Shown piece after piece: positions 380-48,008 of a stretch of 64,000 bases of DNA. This stretch comes from an uncultured Verrucomicrobiae bacterium (GTDB lineage Bacteria; Verrucomicrobiota; Verrucomicrobiia; Chthoniobacterales; Chthoniobacteraceae): the NCBI GenBank assembly GCA_963836755.1, contig CAWIKF010000002.1, positions 1,856,001 through 1,920,000 on the forward strand, in the 5' to 3' direction. Every line of letters begins with the position of its first letter. Within the stretch, counting starts at the first letter, position 1. The notes under the pieces were generated by a model. It was not told the origin of the DNA and made no database searches. It was given only the letters and a program-made list of their open reading frames with translations. The position numbers and the translations under genes were made by a program.

Positions 380-640
380 GAGGTTTTCGCTTCCGCTGAC
401 GAGGTTTTCCGCGACAGAAAACCGGTTTTCCGCCGCAGGCACGAGGTTTTCCACGCCGGAGATGGGTATTTTGCGACAGAAAACCTTGTATCCGTCGCGG
501 AAATGAGGTGTTCCGCGTCTCCTGCGAGGTATTCCGGAGCGCCGGGAGGTATTTTGCGACGGAATACCTAGCATCCCTCGCGCGCCACCTCGTCCGCGGA
601 CTGGATTACCCTGTATCCGCCGCAGCCGGGCGGGATTTTT
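380..640. repeat. Degenerate 21-bp tandem array 1 (~12 units)
   Basis: Units start at 380, 401, 422, 443, 464, 484, 505, 526, 546, 567, 588, 609; core GAGGTWTTCC; two units are 20 bp. Confidence 0.8.
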
Positions 641-723
641 CACTCTCTTCCAGAGTAAATGCCTAAGAAACCGACGCTACACCGCCAATCATGGGCAGGG
701 GTGCCGCGGCCACAGTAATTCGC

Positions 724-939
724 TTACCCGAGGCGATAGACGATCCGCGCCTTATTCAGATCGTAAGGCGACATCTCGAGTTTCACCCGGTCGCCGGTGG
801 TGAGGCGGATGAAGCGCTTGCGCATTTTTCCGGAGATGTGGGCGAGGACTTCATGTTTGTTGTCGAGCGCGACCTTGAACATCGTGCCAGCGAGAACGGC
901 GACGATTTTGCCTTCGGTTTCGATTGTTTGTTCAGCCAT
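724..939 (-). CDS. infA: Translation initiation factor IF-1
   Basis: IETEGKIV...[39 protein letters not shown]. Confidence 0.97.
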
Positions 940-964
940 GTAGGAACTGCGGAGTTTTTTGGAG

Positions 965-998
965 AAAAAAAAAGCGAGGCCTGTTGCCAGGCCTCGCT
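965..998 (-). terminator. Intrinsic terminator after the RRM gene
   Basis: 11-bp stem agcgaggcctg/caggcctcgct with a 9-A run on + strand (U-tract on - strand). Confidence 0.85.
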
Positions 999-1010
999 CA
1001 CATTTTTGAC

Positions 1011-1292
1011 TTAGCGGCGTGAACCGGAGAAGGAGCGCGCGGGGCGTTCTTCGCGGGCGCGGGCTTCGTTCACAGTCAGGTTGCGACCGTCGACGGTTTT
1101 GCCGTGGAGGGCGCCGATGGCTGCCTGCCCGGCGGCTGCGTTCGCCATGGTGACAAAGCCGAATCCGCGGGAGCGGCCGGTCATTTTGTCCTGGATGAGC
1201 GCGGTGTCGGAGACATCGCCGAAGGGCGAGAAAAGATCCTGGAGATCGTTCTCAGTGGTGTCGAAGGATAGGTTTCCTACGTATAGTTTCAT
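1011..1292 (-). CDS. RNA-recognition-motif (RRM/Rbp) RNA-binding protein
   Basis: RNP2 LYVGNL and RNP1 RGFGFVTM; start at MKLYVGNL. Confidence 0.95.
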
Positions 1293-1423
1293 TTGGTTTT
1301 TGATATCAGTTTGAATTGGCGAGCTTCTGAAGCTGTTCCCGAGAACCGGGTTTCGAATCACCAATGAGAAAACTCACCTGACGATCTACCACGCTACGAA
1401 CACGAACAATCAACTAAGCGGCG

Positions 1424-1452
1424 AGAGTAAGCGCGCTGGCGGAATTGTGCAA
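1424..1452 (-). promoter_or_regulatory. Putative sigma70 promoter of the RRM gene
   Basis: TTGCAC-N17-TACTCT on - strand. Confidence 0.55.
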
Positions 1453-1586
1453 ACGAAAGTTTTACTTTTCCGGCGATGATGGCGAATCGTGGGGCGGATG
1501 CTCGCGTGCAGTGGCCTTTGCCGAAAGCCGAATCTTTTTCCAAAAAACCGCTTTTTGGCGCAAAAATAAATTGACGCGCGAGCCAG

Positions 1587-1601
1587 TGAGACTGAGTCTC
1601 A
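1587..1601. promoter_or_regulatory. Fur-box-like 7-1-7 operator upstream of the iron permease
   Basis: TGAGACT-G-AGTCTCA perfect palindrome just downstream of TTGACG (1571-1576). Confidence 0.6.
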
Positions 1602-1608
1602 GAAGCGC

Positions 1609-2634
1609 ATGAGTGACATCGCTCTCACCGACGTTTATCGCGAACCGGCAAGGCCCGCGCTCCCGATGCTGCCGAAATGCCTTTTGATTTTCGGGGGATT
1701 GCTCGTGGTATCGCTGCTCATTTGGCAGGGGCTCGCTGCGAAGGGCGCGCCCGATCCGCTCTCGGAGCAATCGAGTAGGTTCTCGGCGACCTTTGACATC
1801 GCGGTGCTGGTTTTTCGCGAGGGACTGGAATGCGTGCTCGTCCTCTCGGCGATCACCGCGAGCATGGTCGGCGCGAACGCCGCTCATAAAAAGCCGGTGG
1901 CCGCGGGCGTCGGCGCGGGATTTCTCGCTACGATCGCGACATGGTTCATCGCGGTGGCGATCATCGCGGATCTGACGCAAAACGTTTCCGCGCTCGACAT
2001 CCAAGCGGCAACGGGGCTGCTCGCGGTCGTTGTTTTGCTCGTGGTGATGAATTGGTTTTTCCACAAAATCTACTGGGGCCGCTGGATTACGCTGCACGGG
2101 AAAAAGAAAAAGTCGCTGCTTAACGAAGCAAATGGATCGCTGATCACGCGCCGGCGTCTTTTCTGGGGACTCGGCTTGCTCGGCTTCAGCGCGTTTTATC
2201 GCGAGGGATTCGAGGTCGTGCTTTTCCTGCAGAGCTATCGCTTGAAAATGGGGAGCTCTGTGGTGCTCGGCGGCGCGGCGATCGGGATGTTCTTTTCCGC
2301 GCTTGTCGCTTTGTTAACGTTTGTTGCCCATCATCGTCTTCCGTATCGGCGGATGCTCGTGCTGACCGGCGTGATGCTCGGGTTCGTATTGATCGTGATG
2401 GTCGGCGAGCAGGCGCAGGAAATGCAGCTCGCGCGATGGATTTCGACGACGCCGATCAAGGCGCTGGCAGATTTCACGCCGAATTGGGCCGGAGTTTGGT
2501 TCTCATTTTTCCCGACAGTCGAGACGATCGCGGCGCAGATTCTTGCGGCGGCGATCGTGATTCTTTCCTACTTCCTCGCGCGGTCGGAAATGCGAAACGC
2601 GCCGGCGCAAGTGGCCGCGCCGATCAATCGCTAA
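1609..2634 (+). CDS. FTR1/EfeU-family iron permease
   Basis: Two REGxE motifs (REGLE, REGFE), multiple TM helices. Confidence 0.9.
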   Translation: MSDIALTDVYREPARPALPMLPKCLLIFGGLLVVSLLIWQGLAAKGAPDPLSEQSSRFSATFDIAVLVFREGLECVLVLSAITASMVGANAAHKKPVAAGVGAGFLATIATWFIAVAIIADLTQNVSALDIQAATGLLAVVVLLVVMNWFFHKIYWGRWITLHGKKKKSLLNEANGSLITRRRLFWGLGLLGFSAFYREGFEVVLFLQSYRLKMGSSVVLGGAAIGMFFSALVALLTFVAHHRLPYRRMLVLTGVMLGFVLIVMVGEQAQEMQLARWISTTPIKALADFTPNWAGVWFSFFPTVETIAAQILAAAIVILSYFLARSEMRNAPAQVAAPINR

Positions 2635-4069
2635 CGACTTTTCCCGCGAGCTGTTCGTAGATCCGCTCGTATTGCTGGGCAGCGTTTGCCCACGAAAAAT
2701 TGCATTCCATCGCGCGAAGCATCAGCGCCTTCCACGCGGCGGAATCGGCGAAAAACTTTTTCGCGCGGCCGATCGCATCCCAAAGCGCCTCGGCGCTGTA
2801 TTCGTAAAATAAAAATCCATTTCCGTCGCCGGTCGTCGGATCGTAATCGGTGATGATCTGGTGCAGCCCGCCGCTGGCGCGCGCAAGCGGGATCGTGCCG
2901 TATTTCAGCGAATACATCGCGGTCAGCCCGCACGGTTCGAAGCGCGACGGGATCAGCGTGATGTCGGCGCCGGCCTCGGCGAGATGGGCGAGTTTGTCGT
3001 CAAAGGCCTTGTGAAATGCGAAGCGGCCCGCATGGCGTTTCGCGGCGACGAAAAAGTCGCGCTCATATTGCGGATCGCCTTCGCCGAGAATGACGAGCCG
3101 CACATCATCGGCGAGCAATCGGTCGAGCAGCGGCAGCAAAATATCGATCCCTTTTTGCTCCGCGAGCCGTGAAACCATCGCGATCACCGGCCCGCGCGGA
3201 TTCGGCTCCAGCGCGCACTCCGCGAGCAGCGCATCGCGACAAACTTTTTTCCCGGCCGGCGCGGACGGCTTGTATTTTTTCGGAATGAATTTGTCGGTCG
3301 CGGGATTCCACGTCGCGTAGTCCGCGCCATTCAAGATGCCGGTGAGCTTCCGCGCATTTTCGCGCACCACGACATCGAGCCCCGCGCCAAATTCCGGCGT
3401 CTGGATTTCGCGCGCATAATGCTCGCTCACCGTCGTGACCGCGTCCGCGTAAAGGATGCCGCCTTTCATGAAATTGAGCTGCCCGTAAAACTCCACGCCC
3501 TTTGCTCCGAAGTAATCGCCCGGCAGATTCGTCAGCCCGAAATCAACGCCCCAGAAACTTCCTTGATACGCAAGATTGTGGATCGTGAGCACCGTGCGAA
3601 ACGGCAGCGCCTGATCGCGCACGAAGACCGGCAGCAGCGCCGTCTGCCAATCATGCATGTGCAAAATATCGGGCGAGGGATTCACGCGCCGCGCGAGTTC
3701 CACGATCGCTTTCGTGAAAAAAATGAAGCGCTCCGCGTTGTCCTCGTAAGCGCGTCCGTCGGTGCCATAGATCGCGCTACGGTCAAAATATTCGTCGCGC
3801 TTCACGAGAAAAACCTGCACGTCATTCGGCGCGAGCGTTTCCAGAATTTCCGTGTCGATGCGGCGGCTGCCGACTTGCACTGTCATTTGGACGCCGGTGT
3901 TTTTGATCTTCAGCGCGCGGTTCTCGCGGATGCTGCGATAAAACGGAAGCACGACGCTCACCTCGTGCCCGCGCTTGTCGAGTTCCGCTGGCAGCGCCTC
4001 GAGCACGTCGCCGAGTCCGCCCGTGCGCGCGAGTGGCGCCATTTCGCTGCTGGCCATCAAAATTTTCAT
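2624..4069 (-). CDS. glgA: Glycogen synthase
   Basis: MKILMASSEMAPLARTGGLGDV, HMHDWQT, TIHNLAYQG, PSRFEPCGL. Confidence 0.95.
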   Translation of the reverse strand: MKILMASSEMAPLARTGGLGDVLEALPAELDKRGHEVSVVLPFYRSIRENRALKIKNTGVQMTVQVGSRRIDTEILETLAPNDVQVFLVKRDEYFDRSAIYGTDGRAYEDNAERFIFFTKAIVELARRVNPSPDILHMHDWQTALLPVFVRDQALPFRTVLTIHNLAYQGSFWGVDFGLTNLPGDYFGAKGVEFYGQLNFMKGGILYADAVTTVSEHYAREIQTPEFGAGLDVVVRENARKLTGILNGADYATWNPATDKFIPKKYKPSAPAGKKVCRDALLAECALEPNPRGPVIAMVSRLAEQKGIDILLPLLDRLLADDVRLVILGEGDPQYERDFFVAAKRHAGRFAFHKAFDDKLAHLAEAGADITLIPSRFEPCGLTAMYSLKYGTIPLARASGGLHQIITDYDPTTGDGNGFLFYEYSAEALWDAIGRAKKFFADSAAWKALMLRAMECNFSWANAAQQYERIYEQLAGKVVSD

Positions 4070-4203
4070 CGCGTGCGCATCAGAACACAGCGGTTTCCCG
4101 CCACGCAAATACAAACGTGGGCCGCAGCCTGCCGGGCCTTTAAATCGCGCTTGTCATCGATTTCTTCATTGCTACATTCCCCAGCCTTCACACGGTTCTC
4201 TGC

Positions 4204-4674
4204 ATGACGCTCGGCAACTTACTCACCGTCGAACAAATCATTCCCGAAATGAAAGCGACGGAACGTTACGCCGCCATTGAGGAGCTCACCGACTTGCTCG
4301 TCGCGCGCGGCCAAGTCGTCGCCGCCGACCGCGACACGGTGCTTCAAGCGCTCCGCGCGCGCGAGGAAACGATGAGCACCGGCATCGGCTTCGGTATCGC
4401 CATTCCGCACGCTTCGTCTGACCGCGTCGGCAAAGTCGTCGCCGCTTTTGGCCGCAGCACCGCCGGCATTGAGTTCGAGTCGCTCGATAATGCGCCGGTA
4501 AAATTCATCGTCCTCTTCATCGTCCCGAAGGACCAGTTCCAAACCCACCTCCGCACGCTCGCTGCCATCGCGAAATTCCTCAACGATCGCACCGTCCGCG
4601 AGCGCCTCGGCACCGCCGCCTCCGCGGCCGAAATCCTCACCATCTTCGAGAGCAACGCACCGGCGCGCGTCTAG
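4204..4674 (+). CDS. ptsN: PTS EIIA (Ntr/fructose-type) domain protein
   Basis: REETMSTGIGFGIAIPHA phospho-His motif. Confidence 0.85.
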   Translation: MTLGNLLTVEQIIPEMKATERYAAIEELTDLLVARGQVVAADRDTVLQALRAREETMSTGIGFGIAIPHASSDRVGKVVAAFGRSTAGIEFESLDNAPVKFIVLFIVPKDQFQTHLRTLAAIAKFLNDRTVRERLGTAASAAEILTIFESNAPARV

Positions 4675-4762
4675 GCGATTCGCCGCGGATCGACTCCCCC
4701 GATGAGTGCAGAACTTTTGCAGTCGCGCCGTCTTTTCATCCATCGGGAAGTGCGTCATTAAA

Positions 4763-6463
4763 ATGGAAACGCTAATTTCCCTCCTCGAGAAAAAGTTGCG
4801 CGACGCGCTCGCCGGCTTCGCGAAAATCGAGCCGCGCGTCACCGCCGCCGCCGACACCCGCTTTGGGGATTACCAGACGAATGTCGCGATGCTCCTCGCG
4901 AAAGAAATGCGCGCCAATCCGCGCCAGATCGCTGCGAAAATCATCGAGCGCATCGACGTCGCCGGACTTTGCGAAAAACCGGAAATCGCCGGCGCCGGGT
5001 TCATCAACTTTCGCCTCACCGGCACGTTGTTAAACACACGTTTGGCCGACCTCGCGCGCGAGCCGATGCTTGGTGTCCCGCGTGCGACGCCGAAAAAAAT
5101 CGTCGCCGATTTCAGCGGTGTAAACATCGCGAAGCCGATGCACGTCGGCCACATTCGCAGCACCATTCTCGGCGACACTTTGGTCCGCATCGCGCGCTTC
5201 CTCGGCCACGAAGTCATCGCCGACAACCATCTCGGCGACTGGGGGACGCAGTTCGGCAAAGTCATCTACGGCTGGAAAAACTTTCGAGACGACGACGCGC
5301 TCGCTGCCGATCCCGTCGAGGAGCTCGTGCGGCTTTATCAGCTCGCGCATTCGCTTTCCGAAAACGACGAAACCATTCTCAACGCCTGCCGCGCGGAGCT
5401 CGTAAAACTGCAAGCCGGCGACGCCGAAAATTCCGCGATTTGGAAAAAATGCGTGGAGCTTTCGTGGCACGAATTCGAGCGAATGTATGAGCTGCTTGAC
5501 GTCCATTTCGACGAGCATTTGGGTGAAAGTTTTTACAACTCGCGGCTCGCGCCATTGGTCGCGAAGCTCGAATCCATCGGCATCGCCGAGCAGAGCGAGG
5601 GCGCCACGTGCGTTTTCTTCCGCGACAATCCCGCGCTCGCCGCCAACCCGTGCCTCATCCGCAAAAGCGACGGCGGGTTTCTTTATGCGACGACCGACCT
5701 CGCGACGATCGAGTATCGCATCGAGCGCTGGTCTCCGGACGAAATCTGGTATGTCGCCGGCGCGCCACAGCAGCTGCACTTCGACCAGGTCTTCGCCGTT
5801 GCGCGGAAGATGGGCGTGACCGCGGCGCTCCGTTTCATCCCATTCGGCAGCATTCTCGGCGAGGACCGGAAGCTGATGAAATCGCGCGGCGGCCGCAACG
5901 TTCAGCTCGGCGCATTGCTCGCGGAGGCGCAGCAACGCGCGTTGTCGATTGTTGAACAAAAGAACACGGCGCTGCCCGATGCGGAGAAAAATGGAATCGC
6001 GCAAATCATCGGCATCGGCGCGGTGAAATACGGCGATCTCTCGCAGGCGCGGATGAGCGATTATGTTTTCGCGTGGGACAAAATGCTCGCGCTGCACGGG
6101 AACACGGCGCCGTATTTGCAGAACGCCTACGTCCGCATCCGCTCGATTTTTCGCAAGCTCGACGCCGCGTGGGAACCGCCGGCTGAGCTCGCGCTTACTG
6201 AGCCCGCCGAGCTCGCGCTCGCAAAAAAAATCCTTCAGTTCGGCGAGACGGTGCCGACGGTGCTCGACGATTTTCGACCGAACATTCTCGCCAGTTATCT
6301 CTACGAACTCGCAAACGTTTTCCACGCCTTTTACGAGGCGTGCCCGGTTTTGAAGGCGGAGGAGCCGGCGCGACAGTCGCGCCTCGCGCTCGCCGATCTC
6401 ACCGCGCGGATCCTCGCGCAGGGGCTCGCGCTTCTCGGCATCGGCGTGCCCGAAAAAATGTAG
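4763..6463 (+). CDS. argS: Arginine--tRNA ligase
   Basis: FGDYQTN, NIAKPMHVGHIRST, HLGDWGTQFG, GNTAPYLQNAYVRI, C-terminal PEKM. Confidence 0.97.
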   Translation: METLISLLEKKLRDALAGFAKIEPRVTAAADTRFGDYQTNVAMLLAKEMRANPRQIAAKIIERIDVAGLCEKPEIAGAGFINFRLTGTLLNTRLADLAREPMLGVPRATPKKIVADFSGVNIAKPMHVGHIRSTILGDTLVRIARFLGHEVIADNHLGDWGTQFGKVIYGWKNFRDDDALAADPVEELVRLYQLAHSLSENDETILNACRAELVKLQAGDAENSAIWKKCVELSWHEFERMYELLDVHFDEHLGESFYNSRLAPLVAKLESIGIAEQSEGATCVFFRDNPALAANPCLIRKSDGGFLYATTDLATIEYRIERWSPDEIWYVAGAPQQLHFDQVFAVARKMGVTAALRFIPFGSILGEDRKLMKSRGGRNVQLGALLAEAQQRALSIVEQKNTALPDAEKNGIAQIIGIGAVKYGDLSQARMSDYVFAWDKMLALHGNTAPYLQNAYVRIRSIFRKLDAAWEPPAELALTEPAELALAKKILQFGETVPTVLDDFRPNILASYLYELANVFHAFYEACPVLKAEEPARQSRLALADLTARILAQGLALLGIGVPEKM

Positions 6464-6496
6464 CGCATCGCGCGTCGCGGGTTACATTGCGGTCCG

Positions 6497-6820
6497 ATGA
6501 ATTCCGCCGAACCGATCAACGTCAACAACGACAGCTTCAACTTTGCCGTCGAAAAATCGCCGATTCCCGTCCTCGTCGATTTCTGGGCCCCGTGGTGCGG
6601 CCCGTGCAAAATGATCGCGCCGGTGCTCGATGAGATCGCCCGCGAACAGGCCGGCGCGGTGCGGATCGCAAAAGTGAACGTTGATGATGAACCGCAGCTC
6701 GCAGCGCGCTTCAACATCCGCTCGATCCCGGCGCTGCTGATTTTCCGCGACGGCGTGGTCAAAGAGACCCTCGTCGGGCTGACGAGCAAGCAGAATCTCC
6801 TCGCAAAACTCGCTGCTTAG
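6497..6820 (+). CDS. trxA: Thioredoxin
   Basis: VDFWAPWCGPCK. Confidence 0.97.
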   Translation: MNSAEPINVNNDSFNFAVEKSPIPVLVDFWAPWCGPCKMIAPVLDEIAREQAGAVRIAKVNVDDEPQLAARFNIRSIPALLIFRDGVVKETLVGLTSKQNLLAKLAA

Positions 6821-6834
6821 CGGCGGGAAAGTCG

Positions 6835-7086
6835 AATCCGGGACGTCCCAAATCAAATTTGGGAGGTTCCAAGTCCAATCCAGGGCGTCCCAAGGCTAAT
6901 CCGGGACTTCCCAGGTCCAATCCGGGCGGTCCCGAGCCGAATCCGGGACGTCCCGGGTTGAATCCGGGAGGTCCCGAGTTCAATCCGGGTGGTCCCGAGT
7001 TGAATCCGGGTCGTCCCGAGTCCAATCCGGGACGAGGAAACTTGCAGCCGGGACGAGGGAGGTCCGGTCCGGGAGCCGAAAATCGG
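6835..7086. repeat. Degenerate 21-bp tandem array 2 (12 units)
   Basis: Consensus AATCCGGGNNGTCCCRAGTYN every 21 bp from 6835; palindromic core CGGGACGTCCCG. Confidence 0.9.
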
Positions 7087-7149
7087 CGCTTTCTGCGCGT
7101 CGAGCGAGACTTTTTCTCTGTTAACGCAGCTTACGGCACCCGTGAGCAG

Positions 7150-7869
7150 CTACTTTTTCTCGTCCGGCGTCTTATTCTGAGACTGGTCCTCGGGCTTTTT
7201 GATGCCGAGCAGTTCCAGGTCGAACAGGAGCACCGAGTTGGGTGCGAGGCCTGAGCCTGGAGGCGGTTGTTCACCGTAGGCGAGATTGGCAGGCACGGCG
7301 AGTTGGTATTTTGATCCGACCGGCATCAGTTGCAGAGCCTCGGTCCAACCGGGGATGACTTCTTTGACGGGAAATTCCGCCGGTTCGTTGCGCTTGTAGG
7401 AGCTGTCGAATTCGTGACCGTCGATGGTCGTGCCGGCGTAGTTGGTGACGACGGTGTCGCTCGGTTTCGGAATCGGGCCTTTGCCTTGCGTCAGCACTTT
7501 ATATTGCAGGCCGCTCGAGGTCGTTTTCCATCCGTCCTTCTTTTTGTTGGCGTCAAGGTAGGCCTCACCGGCGGCTTTGTTTTTGCTGACCTCGGCCTGC
7601 GCCTTTGCGGCCATCTCAGTCGCAAATTGGTGCATGGTCGCCTCCATGTCTTGGTCGGTGAGCCGCGGTTTTGCGCCGCTGATGGCGTCGTTGATTCCGG
7701 CGGCGAGCATCGCGGAATTCACGTCGATTCCCTGGCTCTTCAGTTTCGAGCCGATGTTCATCCCGATCGAGTAGCTGACCTTGTCCTTCTGGTCTTTTGG
7801 CACGTCGTCGGCGTGGAGGGCAGTGGTGGTGAGGAGAGCCGCGCTGGCGGCGGCGATGATTTTGTTCAT
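7150..7869 (-). CDS. FKBP-type peptidyl-prolyl isomerase (FkpA/Mip-like)
   Basis: Signal peptide, KVSYSIG, SGLQYKVL, FDSSYKR, VIPGWTEALQLM. Confidence 0.95.
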   Translation of the reverse strand: MNKIIAAASAALLTTTALHADDVPKDQKDKVSYSIGMNIGSKLKSQGIDVNSAMLAAGINDAISGAKPRLTDQDMEATMHQFATEMAAKAQAEVSKNKAAGEAYLDANKKKDGWKTTSSGLQYKVLTQGKGPIPKPSDTVVTNYAGTTIDGHEFDSSYKRNEPAEFPVKEVIPGWTEALQLMPVGSKYQLAVPANLAYGEQPPPGSGLAPNSVLLFDLELLGIKKPEDQSQNKTPDEKK

Positions 7870-7947
7870 AAGGTAGAATCGCGTTTGTAGTGGAAAATTC
7901 TCGCGAGGCAAATCATTTGGCAAAGGCGAAAACGCAGCGGTGCCGGC

Positions 7948-8907: not shown

Positions 8908-8937
8908 CTGGTTTTTTGGCGCGGGCGAAAGGCGTGG

Positions 8938-10502: not shown

Positions 10503-10602
10503 GCGGCGAAACAATCTGACGCAGGCGCGAGCATTGTCGATGCGTTTGCACGGAGCGGAATCATCCCGCTCATTCGATTTTCGGCGGAAGTTTGGCGGTT
10601 CA

Positions 10603-11812: not shown

Positions 11813-11940
11813 GGAACCAGCAAGATGCATGACTCCGCCGCACGGGCAAGCGGGAGTTGCCGCGTGCGATGGCGGTTTTTGTCAAAGGTGGAGATTGTCT
11901 GCTGAGGTCGCCGGCGATATGCTTCGGAATTCCAATCCCT

Positions 11941-12165: not shown

Positions 12166-12240
12166 GCGATTGATCGCGGACGACTGGCGAAACGTGCGGG
12201 TTCATTGACAAAGCGCAGTCTCATTTCGATACTGCCAGTG

Positions 12241-34520: not shown

Positions 34521-34533
34521 ATTGAAGGACGTG

Positions 34534-35090: not shown

Positions 35091-35095
35091 GGCGG

Positions 35096-35383: not shown

Positions 35384-35416
35384 GCGGTTGAAAAATGATG
35401 CGGGCGAAAGCGAAAC

Positions 35417-37449: not shown

Positions 37450-37453
37450 AAAG

Positions 37454-38437: not shown

Positions 38438-38468
38438 TGGGACAGCCGCGGCTATGCGCTGGCGGCGA

Positions 38469-38903: not shown

Positions 38904-38905
38904 GG

Positions 38906-39700: not shown

Positions 39701-39916
39701 AAAAAGCCGGACGCGCCGAAGCGTGCCGTAATTGGGGAAGGTAAAATCGATCCTCACAAAGTAAACCTGAGCCCGCACTCAAGCAAAGGGCGTTTTCCGA
39801 TGGCAAGCATCTTTTTGCGCGCAGATGGCCGGGAAATGGGTTGACACCATTCTTGCTTTGATTCGCAATCCGCGCACGCGGCGGCGGTTTCCGCGACGCC
39901 CGCGTCGTCCGTTTGC

Positions 39917-40855
39917 ATGAAATTCGCGCCGCTCGATTTTTCGAAAATCAAAACCTATCCGCTCGCCGATCGCGTCAACAAGGTCGACGCCGAGCACTTC
40001 GCGCAAGTGCACGAAAAGGGAGAAAGTTTCGCGCGATTTCTGGAAAAGTTGCCGCGCTTTTTGGCTGCGAATGATTTTCGGAAAATCGCGCGGGCGATCG
40101 CTGAAGCTGTCCGCAATCAGCGTCCGGTGCTGTTCATGATGGGCGCACATCCGATCAAGTGTGGGCTCAATCCGCTGATAGTGGACATGATCGAGCGGGA
40201 GATTATTTCCGCCGTTGCGTTCAACGGCGCGGGCGCGGTTCATGATTTTGAAACTGCCTACCAAGGTGAGACGAGCGAGGATGTGCAGCGTGGGCTCGAT
40301 GACGGAAGTTTCGGCATGGTGGATGAAACGCCGCGGCTGATGAATGCTGCGCTCGGGGCCGGAGTCGCGCGCGGCGAAGGCGCTGGCGAGGCGCTCGGTC
40401 GCGCGACCGCTGAGGGAAATTTTCCGAGCCGCGAACTCAGTATTTTGCACGCGGGCTTCACGCGCGGCGCGCCGGTCACGGTTCACATCGCGATCGGCAC
40501 CGACATCATTCATCAGCATCCGAGCACTGATGGCGCCGTGCTCGGCGAGGCGAGCTATCGCGATTTCCAGCGCTTCGCCGCCGTGGTCGCGCAGCTCGAG
40601 GGCGGCGTGGTGCTAAACGTCGGGAGCGCCGTCATCATGCCGGAAGTTTTTTTGAAAGCGCTCACGGTCGCGCGCAATCTCGGCCATCGCATCGAAAATT
40701 TCACGACGGCGAACTTTGACATGATCCGCCATTACCGGCCGTCGGAAAATGTGGTGCGACGTCCGACGCATCTGGGCGGCGAGGGCTTCAACATCGTCGG
40801 CCATCACGAGCTGATGCTGCCGCTGCTTTTCGCGGCGGTGACGGAAGCATTATGA
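39917..40855 (+). CDS. Deoxyhypusine-synthase-like fold protein
   Basis: MMGAHPIKCGL, NGAGAVHDFE, TVHIAIGTDIIH, NVGSAVIMPEVFLKA, GHHELM. Confidence 0.7.
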   Translation: MKFAPLDFSKIKTYPLADRVNKVDAEHFAQVHEKGESFARFLEKLPRFLAANDFRKIARAIAEAVRNQRPVLFMMGAHPIKCGLNPLIVDMIEREIISAVAFNGAGAVHDFETAYQGETSEDVQRGLDDGSFGMVDETPRLMNAALGAGVARGEGAGEALGRATAEGNFPSRELSILHAGFTRGAPVTVHIAIGTDIIHQHPSTDGAVLGEASYRDFQRFAAVVAQLEGGVVLNVGSAVIMPEVFLKALTVARNLGHRIENFTTANFDMIRHYRPSENVVRRPTHLGGEGFNIVGHHELMLPLLFAAVTEAL

Positions 40856-41862
40856 ATCGCGCGCGCTTCCAGCAGATCCTCGCGAACTTTGACGCCAAGC
40901 GAATTCTCGTGATCGGCGATTTGATTCTCGACGAATTTGTCTGGGGACGCGTCAGCCGGATTTCGCCCGAAGCGCCGGTGCCGGTCGTTGACGTCGAACG
41001 CGAAACTTACTATCCCGGCGGCGCAGCGAACGTCGCGCGCAACCTGCGGGAATTTTCGCAGAATGTTTCCGTCATGGGCCTCGTCGGCGATGACGCGCCC
41101 GCGGATCATTTGCAAAAATTGCTCGCGGGCGAGGGGATCAATCTCGAAGCGGTGCAGCGGGACGCGGCGCACCAGACGATCGTGAAAACGCGCATCATCG
41201 CGCGCCAGCAGCAGGTCGTCCGCGTCGATCGCGAAAAGAAAACGCGGCTCTCGTCGGTGCAAATGGAGCGCGCTTTGCAGCACCTTGAAATCGTGATGCC
41301 GAAGCTCGACGCGATCGTGCTCGAGGATTACGGCAAAGGGCTCATCGTCCAGGAATTTGCTGACGCGATCACGCAGCTCGCGCGGCGTGCCGGCAAAATT
41401 CTCGCCGTCGATCCGAACCCGCAGAACGTCCTGCAATGGCGCGGCACGACCGTCATGAAGCCAAACCTTTCCGAAGCCTTCGCCGCTGCGGGCCAGCCGC
41501 ATTCCGAACCGACCGAGCCGATTTCGAGCGACGAGCATCTTTTGCGCGTTGGCGAAAGTTTGTTAAACAAATGGCAACCAGAAAATCTTCTGCTCACGCT
41601 CGGCGAGCACGGCATGCTTTTGTTCCAACCGGGCGAAAAGCCTTTCCACACGCCGACGCGCGCGCGCGAAGTTTTCGACGTTTCCGGCGCGGGCGACACG
41701 GCGATCGCACTTTTCACGCTCGCTTTGTGCGCCGGCGCGACACCGGCAGAGGCTGCCGAAATTTCCAATCACGCGAGCGGAATCGTCGTCGGCAAACTCG
41801 GCACCGCGATCGTGACGCACGCGGAATTGTCCGCGAGCTTCGCACAACACGCCGATGCCTGA
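40852..41862 (+). CDS. rfaE1: D-glycero-beta-D-manno-heptose-7-phosphate kinase (RfaE domain I)
   Basis: RISPEAPVPV, GGAANVA, DYGKG, DVSGAGDT, VGKLGTA. Confidence 0.92.
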   Translation: MNRARFQQILANFDAKRILVIGDLILDEFVWGRVSRISPEAPVPVVDVERETYYPGGAANVARNLREFSQNVSVMGLVGDDAPADHLQKLLAGEGINLEAVQRDAAHQTIVKTRIIARQQQVVRVDREKKTRLSSVQMERALQHLEIVMPKLDAIVLEDYGKGLIVQEFADAITQLARRAGKILAVDPNPQNVLQWRGTTVMKPNLSEAFAAAGQPHSEPTEPISSDEHLLRVGESLLNKWQPENLLLTLGEHGMLLFQPGEKPFHTPTRAREVFDVSGAGDTAIALFTLALCAGATPAEAAEISNHASGIVVGKLGTAIVTHAELSASFAQHADA

Positions 41863-42382
41863 CGCAGCAGTTTTTTTTGACCGCGACGGGACGCTGATGG
41901 AGGAGGTCGATTACTGCGGCGATCCCGACAAAGTCCGCGTGCTGCCCGGCGCAGCCGATGCGCTCGATGCGCTCCACGCTGCCGGTTTTAAAAACGTGAT
42001 CATCACGAACCAAAGCGGCGTCGCGCGCGGCTTCATCACGCACGCGCAATATCATTCCGTCAACGAAGCGTTGCTCGCTCGAATCGGTGCGGGCAAAATT
42101 GACGCCGTTTATTTTTGCCCCGATTTTTCCGAGCGTCGCAAGCCGTCGCCCGCGATGGTTCTGGAAGCAGCGGACGATCTCGACCTCGATCTCGCGCGCT
42201 CCTTTTTCATCGGCGACAAAACTAGCGACATCGAGTGCGGGCGCGCCGCGGGCGTTCGCACGATTCTCGTCGAGACCGGCTACGGAAAAGCGCAATCGGA
42301 CGCGCGACCGGATTTCATCGCGAAAAATCTCGCCGACGCCGCACGCCACATTCTCGCGCAGACTCATGCCCAGCGCGCCTGA
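41855..42382 (+). CDS. gmhB: Heptose 1,7-bisphosphate phosphatase
   Basis: FDRDGT, ITNQSG, RKPSP, IGDKTSD. Confidence 0.9.
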   Translation: MPDAAVFFDRDGTLMEEVDYCGDPDKVRVLPGAADALDALHAAGFKNVIITNQSGVARGFITHAQYHSVNEALLARIGAGKIDAVYFCPDFSERRKPSPAMVLEAADDLDLDLARSFFIGDKTSDIECGRAAGVRTILVETGYGKAQSDARPDFIAKNLADAARHILAQTHAQRA

Positions 42383-43121
42383 AAAAGTTGCGGCCATTCT
42401 GCCAGCGCGCTGGGGCTCGACGCGATTTCCCGGCAAACCGCTCCACATCATCGCCGGCAAACCTTTACTCCAACACGTTTGGGAACGCTGCCTCCGCGCT
42501 CGCCGCCTCGCGCGCATCCTCATCGCCACGGACGACCACCGCATCGCGGACGCCGCGCGCGACTTTGGCGCCGAGGTTGTGATGACATCGGCGCGCCACC
42601 GCAGCGGCACGGATCGGGTCGCCGAAGCTGCGCGCAGGCTGCGCGGCATTTCGCATATTATAAATGTGCAGGGCGACGAACCGCTCATCGACCCGCGCCT
42701 CATCGATCGCATCGCCGACCTCCTTCTCGGCGAAAAGCCGGAGATGATTACAGCCGCAAATCTTTTTCCAACAGACGAACCACTCGATAATCCGAATGTA
42801 GTCAAAGTTGTCCTCGATCGTGATGGGAACGCGCTCTATTTCTCGCGCAGCCCGATCCCGCACGATCGCGACCGCGCGGACAAAGTTCGACATTACCGGC
42901 ATCAGGGAATTTACGGTTACTCCGCGAAATTCTTGCAGCGCTTCGTCGACTGGAAACCGACGCCGCTCGAATGCGCGGAGCAGCTCGAGCAACTTCGTGC
43001 GCTCGAGCATGGCGTGAAAATTCGTGTCCTGGTGACGAAGCACAGCAGCGCTGGCATCGACACTCCGGCCGATGCGGAACGGCTGGAAGCGCTGCTCCGT
43101 TGCGCGAGCGGGAACAAGTAA
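42366..43121 (+). CDS. kdsB: CMP-Kdo synthetase
   Basis: PARWGSTRFPGKPL, SGTDR, NVQGDEP, YFSRSPIP, EQLRAL. Confidence 0.96.
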   Translation: MPSAPEKVAAILPARWGSTRFPGKPLHIIAGKPLLQHVWERCLRARRLARILIATDDHRIADAARDFGAEVVMTSARHRSGTDRVAEAARRLRGISHIINVQGDEPLIDPRLIDRIADLLLGEKPEMITAANLFPTDEPLDNPNVVKVVLDRDGNALYFSRSPIPHDRDRADKVRHYRHQGIYGYSAKFLQRFVDWKPTPLECAEQLEQLRALEHGVKIRVLVTKHSSAGIDTPADAERLEALLRCASGNK

Positions 43122-43264
43122 AAGTCTGCCGGCGAAAGTTTTTCTCCGCCTCGCCGGGTGCGATTGGGCGCAGAGTTTGAACACCGGCCGCGCAGCGCTT
43201 GTTTAAATATTTTGTAAAACGGCGGTGACGAATCGCGCGTGGTCGTGCATCTTTTCCCGGCCGA

Positions 43265-46200
43265 ATGCGCAAATCTATTTCCTCGATGGAAAAACCGGAG
43301 CTTCTCGATGAGCGTGGATTCCACCGGGTGTTGCGCCGGGCGACGGTCGCGCTGTCGCTGGCCTTGAGCTTGCCGACGCTGGCGCTGCTCTCGCTGGTTT
43401 TGATCCTGCTGCACGCGGGCGAGCGCGTGAATCACACCGACGAGGTGATCGCGCAGGCGAACGTGCTCAATCAGCTTTTAGTCGAGATGCAGACGAGCTT
43501 CCGCGGCTATCGGCTCTCGAATGACGAGAGTTATCTCAAGCTTTTCGCGCAGGACCGGAGTTCGTTTATTCCGGCTGCGAACGGGCTCTCGATGCTGGTG
43601 GCGGACAATCCTCCCCAACTCGCGCAGGTGGCGAGATTCCGAGACGAGGCGAATGCGTGGTTCGCTTTCGTCGATGACGAGCTCGCGAAGGTGCGCGGAA
43701 ACGAGGCGCTGGTGCACAACCCGGAATTTCTGAAACGAGGCGTGCCGATTTTTAACACAGCGCAAACGCGCATGGATCAAATCGTCATCGAAGAGCGCAG
43801 GCTGCGGGCCTTGCGCGACAAGAATTTGGATGGCGTCGTCAATGCGCTGCTGTGGACGCTCGGCCTCGTCGCGCTCGCTGGAATTCCCGCGCTGGCGTTT
43901 GGGCTGCGGCGGCTGTTGCTGCGAGTGAGCGCGTCTTACCAAGCGAGCGTCGATGCGGCCGAGCTGCGCGCGCGCGAGCTGCGCGTGACGCTGAGCTCGA
44001 TCGGCGACGCGGTGGTCGCGACGGACGCGGAGGGGAAAGTTACTTTTTTAAATCCGGCTGCGGAGGGATTGATGGGATGGTCAAACGCGGAGGCAACAGG
44101 CCGGCCGCTGTCGGAAGTTTTCGACATCTTCAATCAGACGACGCGTGTGCCGGTGGAAAATCCGGTCGCGCGGGTGTTGCGGAAAAATGTCGTTGTCGGC
44201 CTCGCGAATCATACGGTGCTCCGCGCGCGGGACGGCCGCGAAGTGCCGATCGAGGATTCGGCGGCGCCAATCCGCAGCGACCGCGGCGAAGTGCTCGGCG
44301 TCATTCTTGTTTTTCACGATGTCACGGAAAGGCGCGAGATCGAGCGGAAGCTGCACGAGGGCGCGCTCCTTTCGACGCTGCGCGCAGATGTCGCGGGGCA
44401 ATTCGATCTCGGCAGTCCGCTCGACAAGACGCTGCAAGGTTGTTGCGAAATTCTGGTGCGGCATCTCGATGTGGCATTCGCGCGCATCTGGACGCTCGAT
44501 GCGGAGGGCGAGACCCTTATTTTAAAAGCGAGCGCCGGCCTCTACACGCATCTTGACGGGCCGCACGCGCGCGTGCCGGTGGGAAAATTTAAAATCGGCC
44601 GCATCGCGCAAAACCGTCAGCCGCATTTGACGAACGACGTGGCGCACGATCCGAACATCAGTGATCCGGAGTGGGCGCGGCGCGAGGGGATGGTGGCCTT
44701 TGCCGGTTACCCGCTGCTCGTCGAGGGGCGGCTGGCGGGTGTGCTGGCGGTTTTCGCGCGACACACATTGTCGGACGCGGTGCTGGGCGACCTCGCGCCG
44801 ATCTCGGATGCAATCGCGCAACACATCGAGCGCAAGCGCGCCGAGGCTGCGCTGCACGCGAACGAAGTTTTGAAAACCGCCGTTCTCGACACTTCGCTCG
44901 ACGGTTTCATCCTGATGAATCACGAGGGCCGCATCCAGGACTGGAACGCAGCGGCGGAGCGGATCTTCGGCGCGACGCGAGCGGAGGTCGCCGGAGAATT
45001 TCTCAGCGAAACGATCGTGCCGGAAAATTTGCGCGAGGCGCATCAGCGTGGATTGGCGCGCTACCTCGCCACGCGCGAGGGGCAGATTCTCGGGCGCCGT
45101 CTGGAGCTTCCGGCGCTGCGTGCGGATGGGAAGGAGTTCCCGTGCGAGCTTTCCATCACGCACATCCCCGGCACCGAGCCGCCGCTTTTCGCCGGCTACG
45201 TGCGCGACATCACCGACCGGAAGGAAAATGAAATGGCGCTTCGCGCGGCGACTGAGCAGGCCGAGGCCGCGGCGCGGGCGGTGGCCGAATCGGCGGACCG
45301 CTTCCGCCTCCTCTCGGAAGTCGTCTCGCTGCAAGTCTGGACCGCGCGGCCCGATGGTGAACTCGATTTTACCAACACCGAATGCCGCGCGTATTTCGGC
45401 GTCGTCGCCGACGAGGAGATTCTCGGGAACGGGTGGACGCAATTCGTGCATCCCGACGATCTGCCGACGGTGGCGGAGATGTGGCAAAAGTGTCTCCCGA
45501 CCGGCGACAGCTACGAGGTGGAATTTCGGCTGCGCGATCGCGACGGCGTCTATCGCTGGTTCCTTGGCCGCGCCGAGGCGATGCGGGACGGCGACGGCCG
45601 CATCGCGAAATGGTTCGGCACGAACACCGACATCCACGATCTCAAAATGGCGCAGGGGGAAGCGGAGCGGGCCAGTCGCGCGAAAGATGATTTCCTCGCC
45701 GTCCTCTCCCACGAGCTGCGCACGCCTTTGACGCCGGTTTTGCTCACGGCCGCCGCGCTGCGCGAGGACGACCGCCTGCCTCTCGACGTGCGCGAACAGC
45801 TCGGCATGATGGAACGCAACATCGGCCTTGAGGCGCGTCTCATCGATGATTTGCTCGACCTCACGCGCATCGCAAAGGGGAAACTGCCGCTGCGCCAGCA
45901 GCTCTGCGATACGCACTCGCTCATCGGGCTCGCGATCGAGATCGTGCGCGACGAAGCGCAAACGAAAGGGATTTTTCTCGACCGAAGATTCGATGCCCAG
46001 CACAGCGGGCTCTTCGTCGACCCCTCGCGCTTGCAGCAGGTGATGTGGAATTTGCTGCGCAACGCCGTCAAATTCACCCCGCGAGGCGGACGCGTCACGA
46101 TTCGCACGCGCGACCTTCAGCGTGAAGACGGCGCGGAATGGCTTTCGATCGAAGTGCGCGACTCCGGCATCGGGATCGAACCCGATGCCCTCGAGCGAAT

Positions 46201-46822
46201 CTTCCAGCCATTCGAGCAGGCGCAATTGACCGGCGACCACCGCTTCGGCGGCATCGGCCTTGGCCTCGCCATCGCGCGAGCCATCGTCGATTTGCACGGC
46301 GGCACCATCCGCGCCGAAAGCGAAGGGGCGGACCGCGGCTCGGTTTTCATCGTGACACTCCCCGGCGCAACCACGCCGCCGGCCGGAATCGAGCTGCCGG
46401 ACACTGCCGATCTCTTTTTGCACGGTATCGCTCCAGCCGAGCCCGCGCCCGCGATGCCGTCGCTGCGCTTGATGCTCGTCGAGGATCACGAGGCGACGCT
46501 GCAAGTGCTCACCCGACTGCTCACCCGCGCGGGGCATCAAGTTTTCACCAGCAATTCCGTGGCGGGCGCGCTCGCTGTGGCGGCTACGAAAAAAATCGAC
46601 CTCGTCATCAGCGACCTCGGCCTGCCCGATGGCACCGGCAACGATCTGATGGAGCAGCTTCGCGACCGGCATCAATTGAGCGGCATCGCCCTGACCGGCT
46701 ATGGAATGGAAGAAGATCTGGAGCGCTCGCGGCAGGCGGGATTTTTCACCCATCTCATCAAGCCGGTCGACTTTAACCAGCTCCGCCGCGCCGTCGCGGC
46801 ATTCAGAGTCGATCGGGAGTGA
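43265..46822 (+). CDS. Hybrid sensor histidine kinase (CHASE3-PAS-GAF-PAS-PAS-HisKA-HATPase-REC)
   Basis: Two TMs flanking a CHASE3-like region; SHELRTPL, NAVKFT, DSGIG, GIGLGL; receiver SDLGLPDGTG/KP. Confidence 0.93.
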   Translation: MRKSISSMEKPELLDERGFHRVLRRATVALSLALSLPTLALLSLVLILLHAGERVNHTDEVIAQANVLNQLLVEMQTSFRGYRLSNDESYLKLFAQDRSSFIPAANGLSMLVADNPPQLAQVARFRDEANAWFAFVDDELAKVRGNEALVHNPEFLKRGVPIFNTAQTRMDQIVIEERRLRALRDKNLDGVVNALLWTLGLVALAGIPALAFGLRRLLLRVSASYQASVDAAELRARELRVTLSSIGDAVVATDAEGKVTFLNPAAEGLMGWSNAEATGRPLSEVFDIFNQTTRVPVENPVARVLRKNVVVGLANHTVLRARDGREVPIEDSAAPIRSDRGEVLGVILVFHDVTERREIERKLHEGALLSTLRADVAGQFDLGSPLDKTLQGCCEILVRHLDVAFARIWTLDAEGETLILKASAGLYTHLDGPHARVPVGKFKIGRIAQNRQPHLTNDVAHDPNISDPEWARREGMVAFAGYPLLVEGRLAGVLAVFARHTLSDAVLGDLAPISDAIAQHIERKRAEAALHANEVLKTAVLDTSLDGFILMNHEGRIQDWNAAAERIFGATRAEVAGEFLSETIVPENLREAHQRGLARYLATREGQILGRRLELPALRADGKEFPCELSITHIPGTEPPLFAGYVRDITDRKENEMALRAATEQAEAAARAVAESADRFRLLSEVVSLQVWTARPDGELDFTNTECRAYFGVVADEEILGNGWTQFVHPDDLPTVAEMWQKCLPTGDSYEVEFRLRDRDGVYRWFLGRAEAMRDGDGRIAKWFGTNTDIHDLKMAQGEAERASRAKDDFLAVLSHELRTPLTPVLLTAAALREDDRLPLDVREQLGMMERNIGLEARLIDDLLDLTRIAKGKLPLRQQLCDTHSLIGLAIEIVRDEAQTKGIFLDRRFDAQHSGLFVDPSRLQQVMWNLLRNAVKFTPRGGRVTIRTRDLQREDGAEWLSIEVRDSGIGIEPDALERIFQPFEQAQLTGDHRFGGIGLGLAIARAIVDLHGGTIRAESEGADRGSVFIVTLPGATTPPAGIELPDTADLFLHGIAPAEPAPAMPSLRLMLVEDHEATLQVLTRLLTRAGHQVFTSNSVAGALAVAATKKIDLVISDLGLPDGTGNDLMEQLRDRHQLSGIALTGYGMEEDLERSRQAGFFTHLIKPVDFNQLRRAVAAFRVDRE

Positions 46823-46900
46823 CGCGCTCGACGGACTTTCGTCGGCGATCCCAAACCTTCGGGCTTCCTACGCAGGGCTTCGCACGCCCGAAATAATTCG

Positions 46901-47608
46901 CTATCCGCGGACCAGCACCGTCTGGATCCCACTCGGCTGGCCCACCGGCGTGTCCTTCGCACAAGCCTGACCCTGGATTTCCCACTCCTCCGGCTGGCCG
47001 GGCGTGGTGATCGGGATGTGCAGCGACGCTGGCGTCGCCATGAACCGGCCGAGATTGATCCATGTGCCCGTGCCCGCTTTGCGCCCATGAAACTCCATCG
47101 CGGCAACATTGCCGCCGGCCTTGCGAAATTTCGCGCTCACCGTCGCTGTGGCCGTGCAGGTCACGCCGCTGACCACCGCGACGTAGCTGGCGGGATCAAA
47201 GCCGCTGCCCGTTCCTTCAGTCCGCAGCGTATTCCCCTGCACTTCGGGATTGTAGCTTGTCGAGCTTTTCACCGCCTGCACCCATTTTTCGCGGCGCGCC
47301 TCGATCCCGCCGAGCACTGCGTCGGGCGAGGTCGGCAACGTCGGCATCGCGGGAAAGACCGGCGCGGCCCCGTCAATTGCCCCGTCGAGATACGCGTGGA
47401 TGTAGCCGGTGATGCTCATCACGAACCCGGCGTAGATATTCGGCAACGTGCGGTAGAGATAGACCGCCATGGCGGCATCGGCGAGGATCGAGGTGATCTG
47501 CGCGGCGGGAATTCCGCAGGCCGCGAGCGTGGTCCCGTTATCGGAGATGATGTTGGCCCACCATTCAGCGCGGCCGTCGTTGGTTTGTGGATAGTAGCGG
47601 TTTGCCAT
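46901..47608 (-). CDS. Uncharacterised protein: helical N-terminus plus FN3/Ig-like C-terminus
   Basis: MANRYYP start after an A-rich leader; C-terminal beta pattern ...PEEWEIQG...VGQPS. Confidence 0.75.
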   Translation of the reverse strand: MANRYYPQTNDGRAEWWANIISDNGTTLAACGIPAAQITSILADAAMAVYLYRTLPNIYAGFVMSITGYIHAYLDGAIDGAAPVFPAMPTLPTSPDAVLGGIEARREKWVQAVKSSTSYNPEVQGNTLRTEGTGSGFDPASYVAVVSGVTCTATATVSAKFRKAGGNVAAMEFHGRKAGTGTWINLGRFMATPASLHIPITTPGQPEEWEIQGQACAKDTPVGQPSGIQTVLVRG

Positions 47609-47697
47609 AGCTTGTTTTTGTTGGGTTGGAGCCGTCCCACCATGGGGCGGCTTTGGACGGATTCTGATCTTCGGCCGAGCGTTGTCGAAATATTTAG

Positions 47698-47715
47698 TGT
47701 TACGATTTCGTAACA
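47698..47715. promoter_or_regulatory. Perfect 8-2-8 operator-like palindrome
   Basis: TGTTACGA-TT-TCGTAACA, 90 bp upstream of the 46901-47608 gene. Confidence 0.6.
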
Positions 47716-47757
47716 AACGCCCGGCGCTTCCCGCCCGCCAGCGTCAGTCCAGGCCGA

Positions 47758-48008
47758 AAAATCCAAGGAGTGCCGGCGAAAATCCCAGGATTGGCGGCAA
47801 AAATCCTAGACTGGACGCCGAAAATCCTACGCTGGACGGCAAAAATCCCGCGTTGCTTCGCGAAAATCCTAGGTTGGCGGCAAAAATCCTAGGATGGATG
47901 CAGAAAATCCCAGGATGAATTGAGAAAATCCTGGGATGGATCGAGAAAATCCTAGGACTGGCGGCGAAAATCCCAGGTTGGAAGGAGAAAATCCCAGGAT
48001 TTTCGCGG
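47758..48008. repeat. Degenerate 21-bp tandem array 3 (12 units)
   Basis: AAAATCCYAGG core at 47758, 47779, 47800, 47821, 47842, 47863, 47883, 47904, 47925, 47946, 47967, 47988; one unit is 20 bp. Confidence 0.92.

What the first reader, a model, noticed from the sequence alone, without database searches (positions are those of the whole stretch)
380..48008. Three intergenic arrays of about 12 x 21-bp palindromic units: a possible shared, undescribed element class
Seen: three arrays (380-640, 6835-7086, 47758-48008) share a 21-bp period, ~12 units, ~250 bp length, a conserved ~10-15-bp core with a variable remainder, and dyad symmetry (GGTTTTC-N7-GAAAACC; CGGGACGTCCCG; ATCCTAGGAT), yet their consensus sequences differ. 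Arrays 1 and 3 contain 20-bp units that break any frame. Established: 21 bp is two B-DNA helical turns, so sites would lie on one face of the helix as in iteron-type arrays. Inference: the same architecture with different sequence suggests a common generating mechanism or function (phased protein-binding or DNA-bending platform, structured RNA, or scar of a mobile gene-plus-array cassette) rather than random slippage.
Basis: partly seen in the sequence, partly recalled or inferred. Interest (0 to 1): 0.8.

Follow-up and report, generated by a model that had tools for sequence, protein, structure and literature searches.

The report
Spreading helically phased 21-bp DNA arrays
The three repeats are 3 of about 70 short arrays in this genome that keep a two-helical-turn (21-base) spacing while their sequence changes freely; they sit either just upstream of an unstudied protein family, predicted to form dimers, or alone, even inside essential genes, and are likely protein-binding DNA platforms that get copied to new places by a still unknown route.

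Summary
Real, and much larger than the window. The genome holds 71 arrays (median 12 units). Pitch is 21 or 20 bp, almost never 22, so it follows helix geometry, not codons. 26 lie upstream of diverse cytoplasmic helical-bundle (±FN3) genes (array 3), 2 downstream of small helical genes, 37 alone between genes (arrays 1, 2), 6 in frame inside conserved genes. Orthologous sites in relatives are empty or carry other inserts, so arrays arrive at new sites. Unrelated arrays share an end motif, TCTACAGAGTAAA, found at all three window arrays; it predicted arrays at 7 of 7 sites in a sister genome. Elsewhere in the family it lies by tRNA ends and integrases and resembles an IHF site. Paralogous cassettes keep leader and promoter but rewrite the units. 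The partner protein is predicted to dimerise; no nuclease or recombinase fold was found. Dyad symmetry is weak. No TIR/TSD excess, Rep gene or RT. The scan noted the gene-plus-array rule before in other genomes; the census, solo and in-frame copies and shared leader are added here. Not found in print; BrickBuilt is closest. DNA binding and the mobility route are untested.

The parts
379..627 (.). Array 1: about 12 degenerate 20/21-bp units between the groEL terminator and the 3' end of infA; solo, no sequence relative elsewhere in the genome
   Evidence: site empty in G001 and G002
647..659 (+). Shared end motif at array 1 (CTTCCAGAGTAAA), pointing away from the array
   Evidence: PWM score 20.9
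6833..7084 (.). Array 2: about 12 units, begins 12 bp after the trxA stop; solo; relatives at C2:1028639 (gene-linked) and C2:578505 (solo)
   Evidence: reassembled in a short-read contig
7112..7124 (-). Shared end motif at array 2 (variant TTAACAGAGAAAA), pointing into the array
   Evidence: PWM score 18.1
46901..47608 (-). Partner gene, 235 aa: N-terminal long helices plus C-terminal FN3 fold; no Pfam/NCBIfam family; predicted homodimer
47661..47688 (-). Promoter-like site between array 3 and the partner gene, conserved in the paralogous cassette at C1:228723
   Evidence: consensus match only
47757..48007 (.). Array 3: 12 units (one of 20 bp), ending 150 bp upstream of the partner gene; solo relatives at C2:350694, C2:1587415, C2:751672, C2:708619
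48008..48070 (-). Leader of array 3 with the shared motif (TCTACAGAGGAAA, 48022-48034); similar leader in the paralogous cassette and in solo arrays

Best explanation
Each array is one copy of a dispersed non-coding DNA module, a short leader plus about 12 units at a 20.5-21 bp pitch, that likely serves as a one-face loading platform for the helical-bundle protein encoded next to about a third of the copies (predicted to be a dimer), likely helped by a host IHF-like bending protein at the leader motif, and that is likely copied to new sites without the gene by an unidentified route. SHOWN: census, pitch, gene linkage, leader motif, empty orthologous sites, in-frame copies, unit turnover between conserved flanks. 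PREDICTED: fold and dimer. INFERRED: DNA binding by the partner, identity of the motif as an IHF-type site, wrapping of about 250 bp, autoregulation of the partner gene from an upstream platform, and shape- rather than sequence-specific readout (because units of 75%-identical partners are unrelated). Solo copies would be non-autonomous offspring tolerated after stop codons, between genes and in surface loops of proteins.
For: Pitch: single steps 249 of 21 bp, 13 of 20, 1 of 22, 1 of 24; double steps 68 of 42, 33 of 41, none of 43: bounded at 10.25-10.5 bp per turn and not a multiple of 3. Size is narrow: median 11.7 units, quartiles 10.4-14. Gene link: 26 of 71 arrays upstream of helical(±FN3) genes; 15 of 18 homologue loci in other genomes have a 21/42 array within 800 bp upstream, including 3 of 3 Acidobacteriota loci. 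Ten of 15 k-mer families mix gene-linked and solo members. Leader: CAGAGTAAA flanks 14 arrays and occurs 18 times in the genome; in G001 7 of 7 exact motif hits have an array starting 35-55 bp away, some gene-linked and some solo, sharing leader and tail but with three different interior units. Motif resembles the IHF consensus WATCAANNNNTTR (PMC5224486, passage), lies within 20 bp of a tRNA/tmRNA end in 6 of 30 and beside a tyrosine integrase in 5 of 30 family loci; the genome has two HU/IHF genes, one nearer IHF than HU. Arrival at new sites: AlaRS, IspG, NrdJ, ValRS and LeuRS loops are 30-110 residues shorter in some relatives, and G002 has different 21-bp arrays in the same AlaRS and LeuRS loops; groEL-infA and an ABC gene pair are empty in relatives. 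Dimer model: score 0.75, best of 3 controls 0.00, runs agree in at least 96% of contacts, pLDDT at least 85; the mark was reached by 20 of 30 solved homodimers and 1 of 23 monomers.
Against: No known DNA-binding fold: the C-terminal domain is FN3 (Z about 10.9, rmsd 2.3, 90 aligned) and an all-helical partner gives only generic bundle matches (best Z 9.6). The motif is found at only 24 of 73 arrays, with a matrix trained on these sites, at 1 of 3 hits in G002 and at 5 of 51 hits outside the genus, so it is neither universal nor array-specific; its orientation towards the gene varies. It differs from the E. coli IHF consensus. Unit sequence does not track partner sequence (9 of 21 matches for 75%-identical proteins; random pairs 9.6). 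No mobilising enzyme is tied to the arrays and no TSD/TIR excess was seen. The same protein loops take up 7-bp repeats and unrelated inserts in other relatives, so uptake may be a general lineage trait.
Confidence: 0.5

Rival explanations
1. Selfish gene-plus-array element in the manner of RAYT/REPIN: the partner protein itself (or with a host enzyme) amplifies and inserts arrays, so the 21-bp pitch is the ruler of a copying reaction and not of a regulatory complex.
For: Families pair one gene-linked array with solo copies; at least 24 partner genes or fragments in one 3.2-Mb genome with patchy distribution; defined leader and tail; IHF-like site as in att sites and CRISPR leaders (10.1101/2023.05.26.542337, passages); weak structural likeness of an all-helical partner to four-helix-bundle/Avd proteins (Z 7.6-8.6).
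Against: No catalytic fold and no invariant residue across 127 homologues; the Avd-like Z values are within the generic range for bundles; no RT found; family not found on plasmids, phages or viral contigs.
Confidence: 0.2
2. Minisatellite-bearing MITEs like BrickBuilt, moved by an ordinary transposase in trans; the gene link reflects their origin as the upstream region of that gene family.
For: Leader-repeats-tail architecture, intergenic dispersal and about 250 bp size match BrickBuilt (PMC4596501, abstract and passages); one Y1 transposase and 8 tyrosine recombinases above cut-off are in the genome.
Against: No excess of flanking direct or inverted repeats in 48 solo arrays (approximate boundaries); at least 15 unrelated families with one pitch; BrickBuilt is a single 23-nt family with TIRs matching ISPg elements and is always intergenic.
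Confidence: 0.15
3. Sequence-specific autoregulatory operators of the partner genes; solo arrays are relics left after gene loss or passive captures during break repair, with no mobility of their own.
For: Array lies upstream of a conserved promoter-like site; several arrays have truncated or frameshifted partner genes; the same loops capture unrelated DNA.
Against: 35 of 37 solo intergenic arrays had no partner remnant nearby among the fragments found with 24 queries; six in-frame copies in conserved genes cannot be simple relics; units are unrelated between close paralogues.
Confidence: 0.12
4. The arrays are translated heptad-repeat peptides or structured RNAs.
For: 21 bp is 7 codons; slightly more open frames than column-shuffled arrays (2.45 vs 1.74); six are translated inside genes.
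Against: 46 of the scored steps are 20 or 41 bp; 8 of 71 arrays have no open frame; no Rfam or Pfam/NCBIfam match; peptide sequences are unrelated.
Confidence: 0.03

Closest known systems
BrickBuilt minisatellite MITE of Porphyromonas gingivalis (PMC4596501; abstract and passages seen)
   Same: Dispersed leader-tandem repeat-tail element of a few hundred bp, many copies per genome
   Different: One 23-nt sequence family with TIRs like ISPg1/9 and always intergenic; here many unrelated families at a fixed 20.5-21 pitch, no TIR/TSD excess, in-frame copies, and a partner gene family
Plasmid iteron arrays with IHF site (PMC4980987; passages seen)
   Same: Phased direct repeats on one helix face, cooperative binding sensitive to half-turn shifts, nearby IHF site
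   Different: Iterons number 2-7, are sequence-specific and go with a winged-helix Rep and an origin; here about 12 degenerate units, 71 chromosomal copies, no Rep fold
REP/REPIN/BIME with RAYT (PMC3733652 passages; RAREFAN listing; BIME-IHF link recalled)
   Same: Non-autonomous repeats dispersed after genes and sometimes inside them, with a dedicated gene next to some copies
   Different: Units are not conserved GTAG/CGTC stem-loops, dyad symmetry is weak, the partner is not an HUH nuclease
Rickettsia palindromic elements (recalled; only listings seen)
   Same: Non-coding repeats inserted in frame into loops of conserved proteins
   Different: RPEs are single palindromes of one sequence family, not phased tandem arrays with a partner gene
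CRISPR leader/att-site scaffolds folded by IHF (PMC5224486, 10.1101/2023.05.26.542337; passages seen)
   Same: Leader with an IHF-type site next to a repeat array
   Different: No unique spacers between identical repeats, no integrase tied to the arrays

Membership tests
MITE (BrickBuilt type) | Terminal inverted repeats | tested here: not met
   Longest flank inverted repeat mean 6.08 vs 6.10 in cross-array controls, 48 solo arrays; boundaries approximate
MITE (BrickBuilt type) | Target-site duplication | tested here: inconclusive
   No excess of flanking direct repeats (5.94 vs 6.08), but no near-identical empty sites were available; one 7-bp direct repeat brackets the NrdJ insert
MITE (BrickBuilt type) | Multiple dispersed non-coding copies with leader and tail | tested here: met
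Plasmid iterons | Adjacent winged-helix Rep initiator | tested here: not met
   Partner folds as helices plus FN3 with no Pfam/NCBIfam Rep match; no match on plasmids
Plasmid iterons | Repeats phased at whole helical turns | tested here: met
Plasmid iterons | Origin activity | not testable with these tools
   needs a replication assay
REP/REPIN/BIME | Conserved short stem-loop unit tagged GTAG/CGTC | tested here: not met
   Units unrelated between families; dyad symmetry in 12 of 71
REP/REPIN/BIME | HUH/Y1 transposase flanked by the repeats | tested here: not met
   One real Y1 gene in the genome, about 2.7 kb from the nearest array; partner genes have no Y1 match
CRISPR array | Identical repeats separated by unique spacers | tested here: not met
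   Contiguous degenerate 21-mers; no Rfam CRISPR match in the window
IHF binding site (for the leader motif) | Match to WATCAANNNNTTR | tested here: inconclusive
   TCWA-CAGA-GTA aligns with TCAA-NNNN-TTR but deviates
IHF binding site (for the leader motif) | Occurrence at att-type sites | tested here: met
   6 of 30 loci within 20 bp of a tRNA/tmRNA end, 5 of 30 beside an integrase; no matched background was run
IHF binding site (for the leader motif) | Binding and bending by the host IHF-like protein | not testable with these tools
   needs EMSA
Four-helix-bundle/Avd proteins (for all-helical partners) | Shared fold and family profile | tested here: inconclusive
   Z 7.6-8.6 over about 100 residues, tied with unrelated bundles; no Pfam/NCBIfam hit

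The most novel reading that the evidence does not exclude
An undescribed class of selfish or architectural element in which a dimeric helical-bundle protein and a host IHF-like factor assemble on a sequence-free, helically ruled 250-bp DNA platform and drive its copying across the chromosome, seeding 7-residue repeat insertions into essential proteins: a mobile element defined by DNA geometry, with no known transposase, recombinase or reverse transcriptase of its own.
Probability: 0.25. Interest if true: 0.92.

Novelty: categorically new. Interest (0 to 1): 0.74.

Why it matters
A large unannotated protein superfamily (1,507 clusters at 50% identity for one branch alone) gets a testable ligand: DNA with a 21-bp pitch. 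A repeat whose period and copy number are conserved across phyla while its sequence is not points to a geometric constraint rarely seen in bacteria, and the bias to 20 over 22 bp is what wrapping on a protein surface would predict (own knowledge). The solo copies cover about 0.55% of this genome and create heptad insertions in tRNA synthetases, IspG and ribonucleotide reductase, a source of new protein sequence and of gene-calling errors. The leader motif also offers a candidate IHF-type consensus for this Verrucomicrobiota family.

Tried and rejected
Pfam/NCBIfam scans of the partner gene, array ORFs and 18-19 paralogous partners gave only weak fn3 hits in 3. The motif as a -10 box (TACTCT) was considered: it points at the partner start in some cassettes but away in others and no -35 at fixed spacing was seen; left open, not preferred. 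A CRISPR-like polarity of unit identity was not seen; GC rises away from the leader in 21 of 28 arrays, unexplained. trxA and FKBP are not adjacent in G001/G002, so array 2 has no exact empty site; their trxA loci carry no array. ahcY-rny and pyrH sites were not syntenic enough to use. No RNA holder was listed, so expression is untested. Searches of metagenome and viral contigs with the single protein confirmed no locus; none in plasmids or phages. No RT found with PF00078 in a 96%-complete genome. Foldseek gave no match for the all-helical partner; the helical domain of the window protein was not folded alone, so its fold is barely tested. Two CheR coiled coils and four low-complexity coding stretches were dropped from the census; two weaker period-41 arrays beside partner remnants (near C2:1340600 and C2:2122300) were seen later and not counted.
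Full report
Observation. The three arrays are in the sequence as described: 379-627, 6833-7084 and 47757-48007, each about 12 units. Array 1 is the weakest but exceeds all 2000 shuffles. The quoted palindromes occur once each, and only 12 of 71 array consensuses in the genome are more dyad-symmetric than shuffles at p<0.05, so symmetry is not defining. Array 2 is reproduced base for base by a short-read contig. Homologue names place the organism in the Verrucomicrobiota.

Census. In the 3.18-Mb genome a lag scan finds 55 regions at period 21 against at most 5 for any period other than 41/42; 55 of 61 TRF arrays of at least 100 bp have period 20, 21, 41, 42 or 84. A looser scan gave 104 candidates against 10 in a codon-shuffled control; 77 were kept, four low-complexity coding stretches and two CheR coiled coils were dropped, leaving 71. 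Median size is 11.7 units. Scored steps are 249 of 21 bp, 13 of 20, one each of 22 and 24; double steps are 68 of 42 and 33 of 41, none of 43. The pitch is thus held between 20.5 and 21 bp, two turns of B-DNA or slightly less, and is not a codon rule.

Context. Using my own gene calls and assignment by inspection plus homology, 26 arrays lie upstream of an intact or broken gene of a diverse set of 200-350-aa helical proteins with or without a C-terminal FN3 domain, 2 lie downstream of a related pair of 160-170-aa helical genes, 37 are alone between genes and 6 are in frame inside AlaRS, LeuRS, ValRS, IspG, NrdJ and an AcrB-like gene. Array 3 is gene-linked; arrays 1 and 2 are solo. 22 of 54 array ends that face a gene's 3' end lie within 50 bp of it, against 4 of 76 ends that face a 5' end. 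By shared 10-mers, 43 of 73 arrays form 15 families; 10 families mix gene-linked and solo members.

The partner gene. The window protein has no Pfam or NCBIfam family. Its model (pLDDT 90.7) shows long N-terminal helices and a beta-sandwich that matches FN3 domains. A profile finds 1,507 clusters; several are mis-called with translated arrays as N-terminal extensions. It is patchy: 11 of 61 relatives and 4 of 151 genomes across the phylum (G000 included). 15 of 18 homologue loci in other genomes have a 21/42-bp array upstream, including 3 of 3 Acidobacteriota loci; a sixteenth has one next to a stronger 7-bp repeat; two have none. Two copies fold as a confident dimer through the long helix: 0.75 against a best control of 0.00, contacts agreeing in at least 96%, pLDDT at least 85; 20 of 30 solved homodimers and 1 of 23 monomers reach the mark. 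An all-helical partner gives only generic bundle matches, among them four-helix-bundle/Avd proteins at Z 7.6-8.6. Partners 75% identical have unrelated units (9 of 21; random pairs 9.6), while their leader, first palindromic unit and promoter-like region align: the interior is rewritten in place.

Shared leader. CAGAGTAAA occurs 18 times in the genome and flanks 14 arrays. A matrix trained on those sites scores 24 of 73 arrays, all three window arrays among them, against 1.3% of 470 control intervals (circular in part). Downstream of the motif an A-tract at +27 to +30 and a T-tract at +38 to +42 lead into the array. As an independent test, 7 of 7 exact hits in G001 have an array beginning 35-55 bp away, but only 1 of 3 in G002. 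The G001 copies share leader and tail, carry three different interior units, and include gene-linked and solo copies. Across 151 family genomes the motif far outnumbers its reversed control but only 5 of 51 examined hits outside the genus have such arrays; 6 of 30 lie within 20 bp of a tRNA or tmRNA end, 5 of 30 beside an integrase, and others sit in different repeat families. It resembles the IHF consensus (PMC5224486), and the genome has two HU/IHF genes, one closer to IHF. I infer a host bending-protein site co-opted by the arrays, as in att sites, iteron origins and CRISPR leaders.

Arrival at new sites. The groEL-infA interval in G001 and G002 has no array. An ABC gene pair is 306 bp apart here, 43 bp in G008 and 123 bp in G006, where a 7-bp repeat element sits instead. 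In five of the six interrupted genes the loop was compared in three to five relatives each (three loci failed to parse; AcrB not compared): each has short alleles 30-110 residues shorter, G002 carries different 21-bp arrays in the same AlaRS and LeuRS loops, and other relatives carry 7-bp repeats or unrelated inserts. The arrays therefore arrive without their gene, though these loops accept many kinds of DNA. No TIR or TSD excess was found, no RT, one Y1 transposase and eight tyrosine recombinases above cut-off, one of them adjacent to an array. The route is unknown.

Model. Best: a leader-plus-array module read by geometry, loaded by partner dimers on one helix face with an IHF-like bend at one end, acting upstream of the partner's promoter, and shedding non-autonomous copies (0.5). 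Rivals: the partner drives copying (0.2), ordinary MITEs (0.15), operators plus relics (0.12), peptide or RNA (0.03).

Known systems. BrickBuilt is closest in architecture but has one 23-nt family and TIRs. Iterons, REP/REPIN and CRISPR each fail a defining test. Nine paper searches found no description of this class; papers were seen as listings, abstracts or passages only, and no supplements were read. Earlier scan notes reported the gene-plus-array rule, a solo cassette and IHF-centred phased modules in other genomes; I re-tested the first rule here and it holds.

Noticed in passing
L081-L083, L109-L112, L119, L101, L095 (relatives' AlaRS, ValRS, LeuRS, NrdJ, IspG loops): The same protein loops are hotspots for unrelated in-frame inserts: 7-bp tandem repeats, 60-75-residue foreign segments, and in G001 AlaRS a stretch that looks like a sigma-70 region 4 (recognised by eye, not scanned).
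   Followed up: partly
G000:C2:266400-266700 (L071): ValRS changes frame shortly after the array-bearing loop; assembly error or real frameshift not resolved.
   Followed up: no
L159-L172 (G008) and L173-L178 (G120): Two other dispersed repeat families built around the same motif: in G008 14 copies with 10-11-bp phased T-rich repeats on both sides, in G120 copies with a 9-bp direct repeat upstream.
   Followed up: partly
G000:C1:273917-274130 and C1:616131-616340: Two arrays share a 180-bp, 96%-identical downstream flank containing a long palindrome, but are followed by different partner families.
   Followed up: no
G000:C2:764656-766003: An integron-integrase-like tyrosine recombinase gene ends 32 bp from a period-41 array and its partner gene.
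   Followed up: no
window 48311-50563; G000:C2:641465 and C2:709161: Three related large exported proteins (the window one ends in a PEP-CTERM-like tail, by eye) each start a few hundred bases from an array; the window one and C2:709161 share their N-terminus and their arrays share the leader.
   Followed up: no
G000:C1:161195 and C2:1046063: A pair of homologous 160-170-aa helical genes has the 21-bp array downstream, not upstream.
   Followed up: partly
window 40023-40064: Two to three degenerate copies of a 21-mer, too short for the census.
   Followed up: no
L134, L156, L157: The motif lies directly before the 5' end of a tRNA-Met(cat) gene, followed by short direct repeats and an integrase gene: a likely att site at the tRNA 5' end.
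   Followed up: partly
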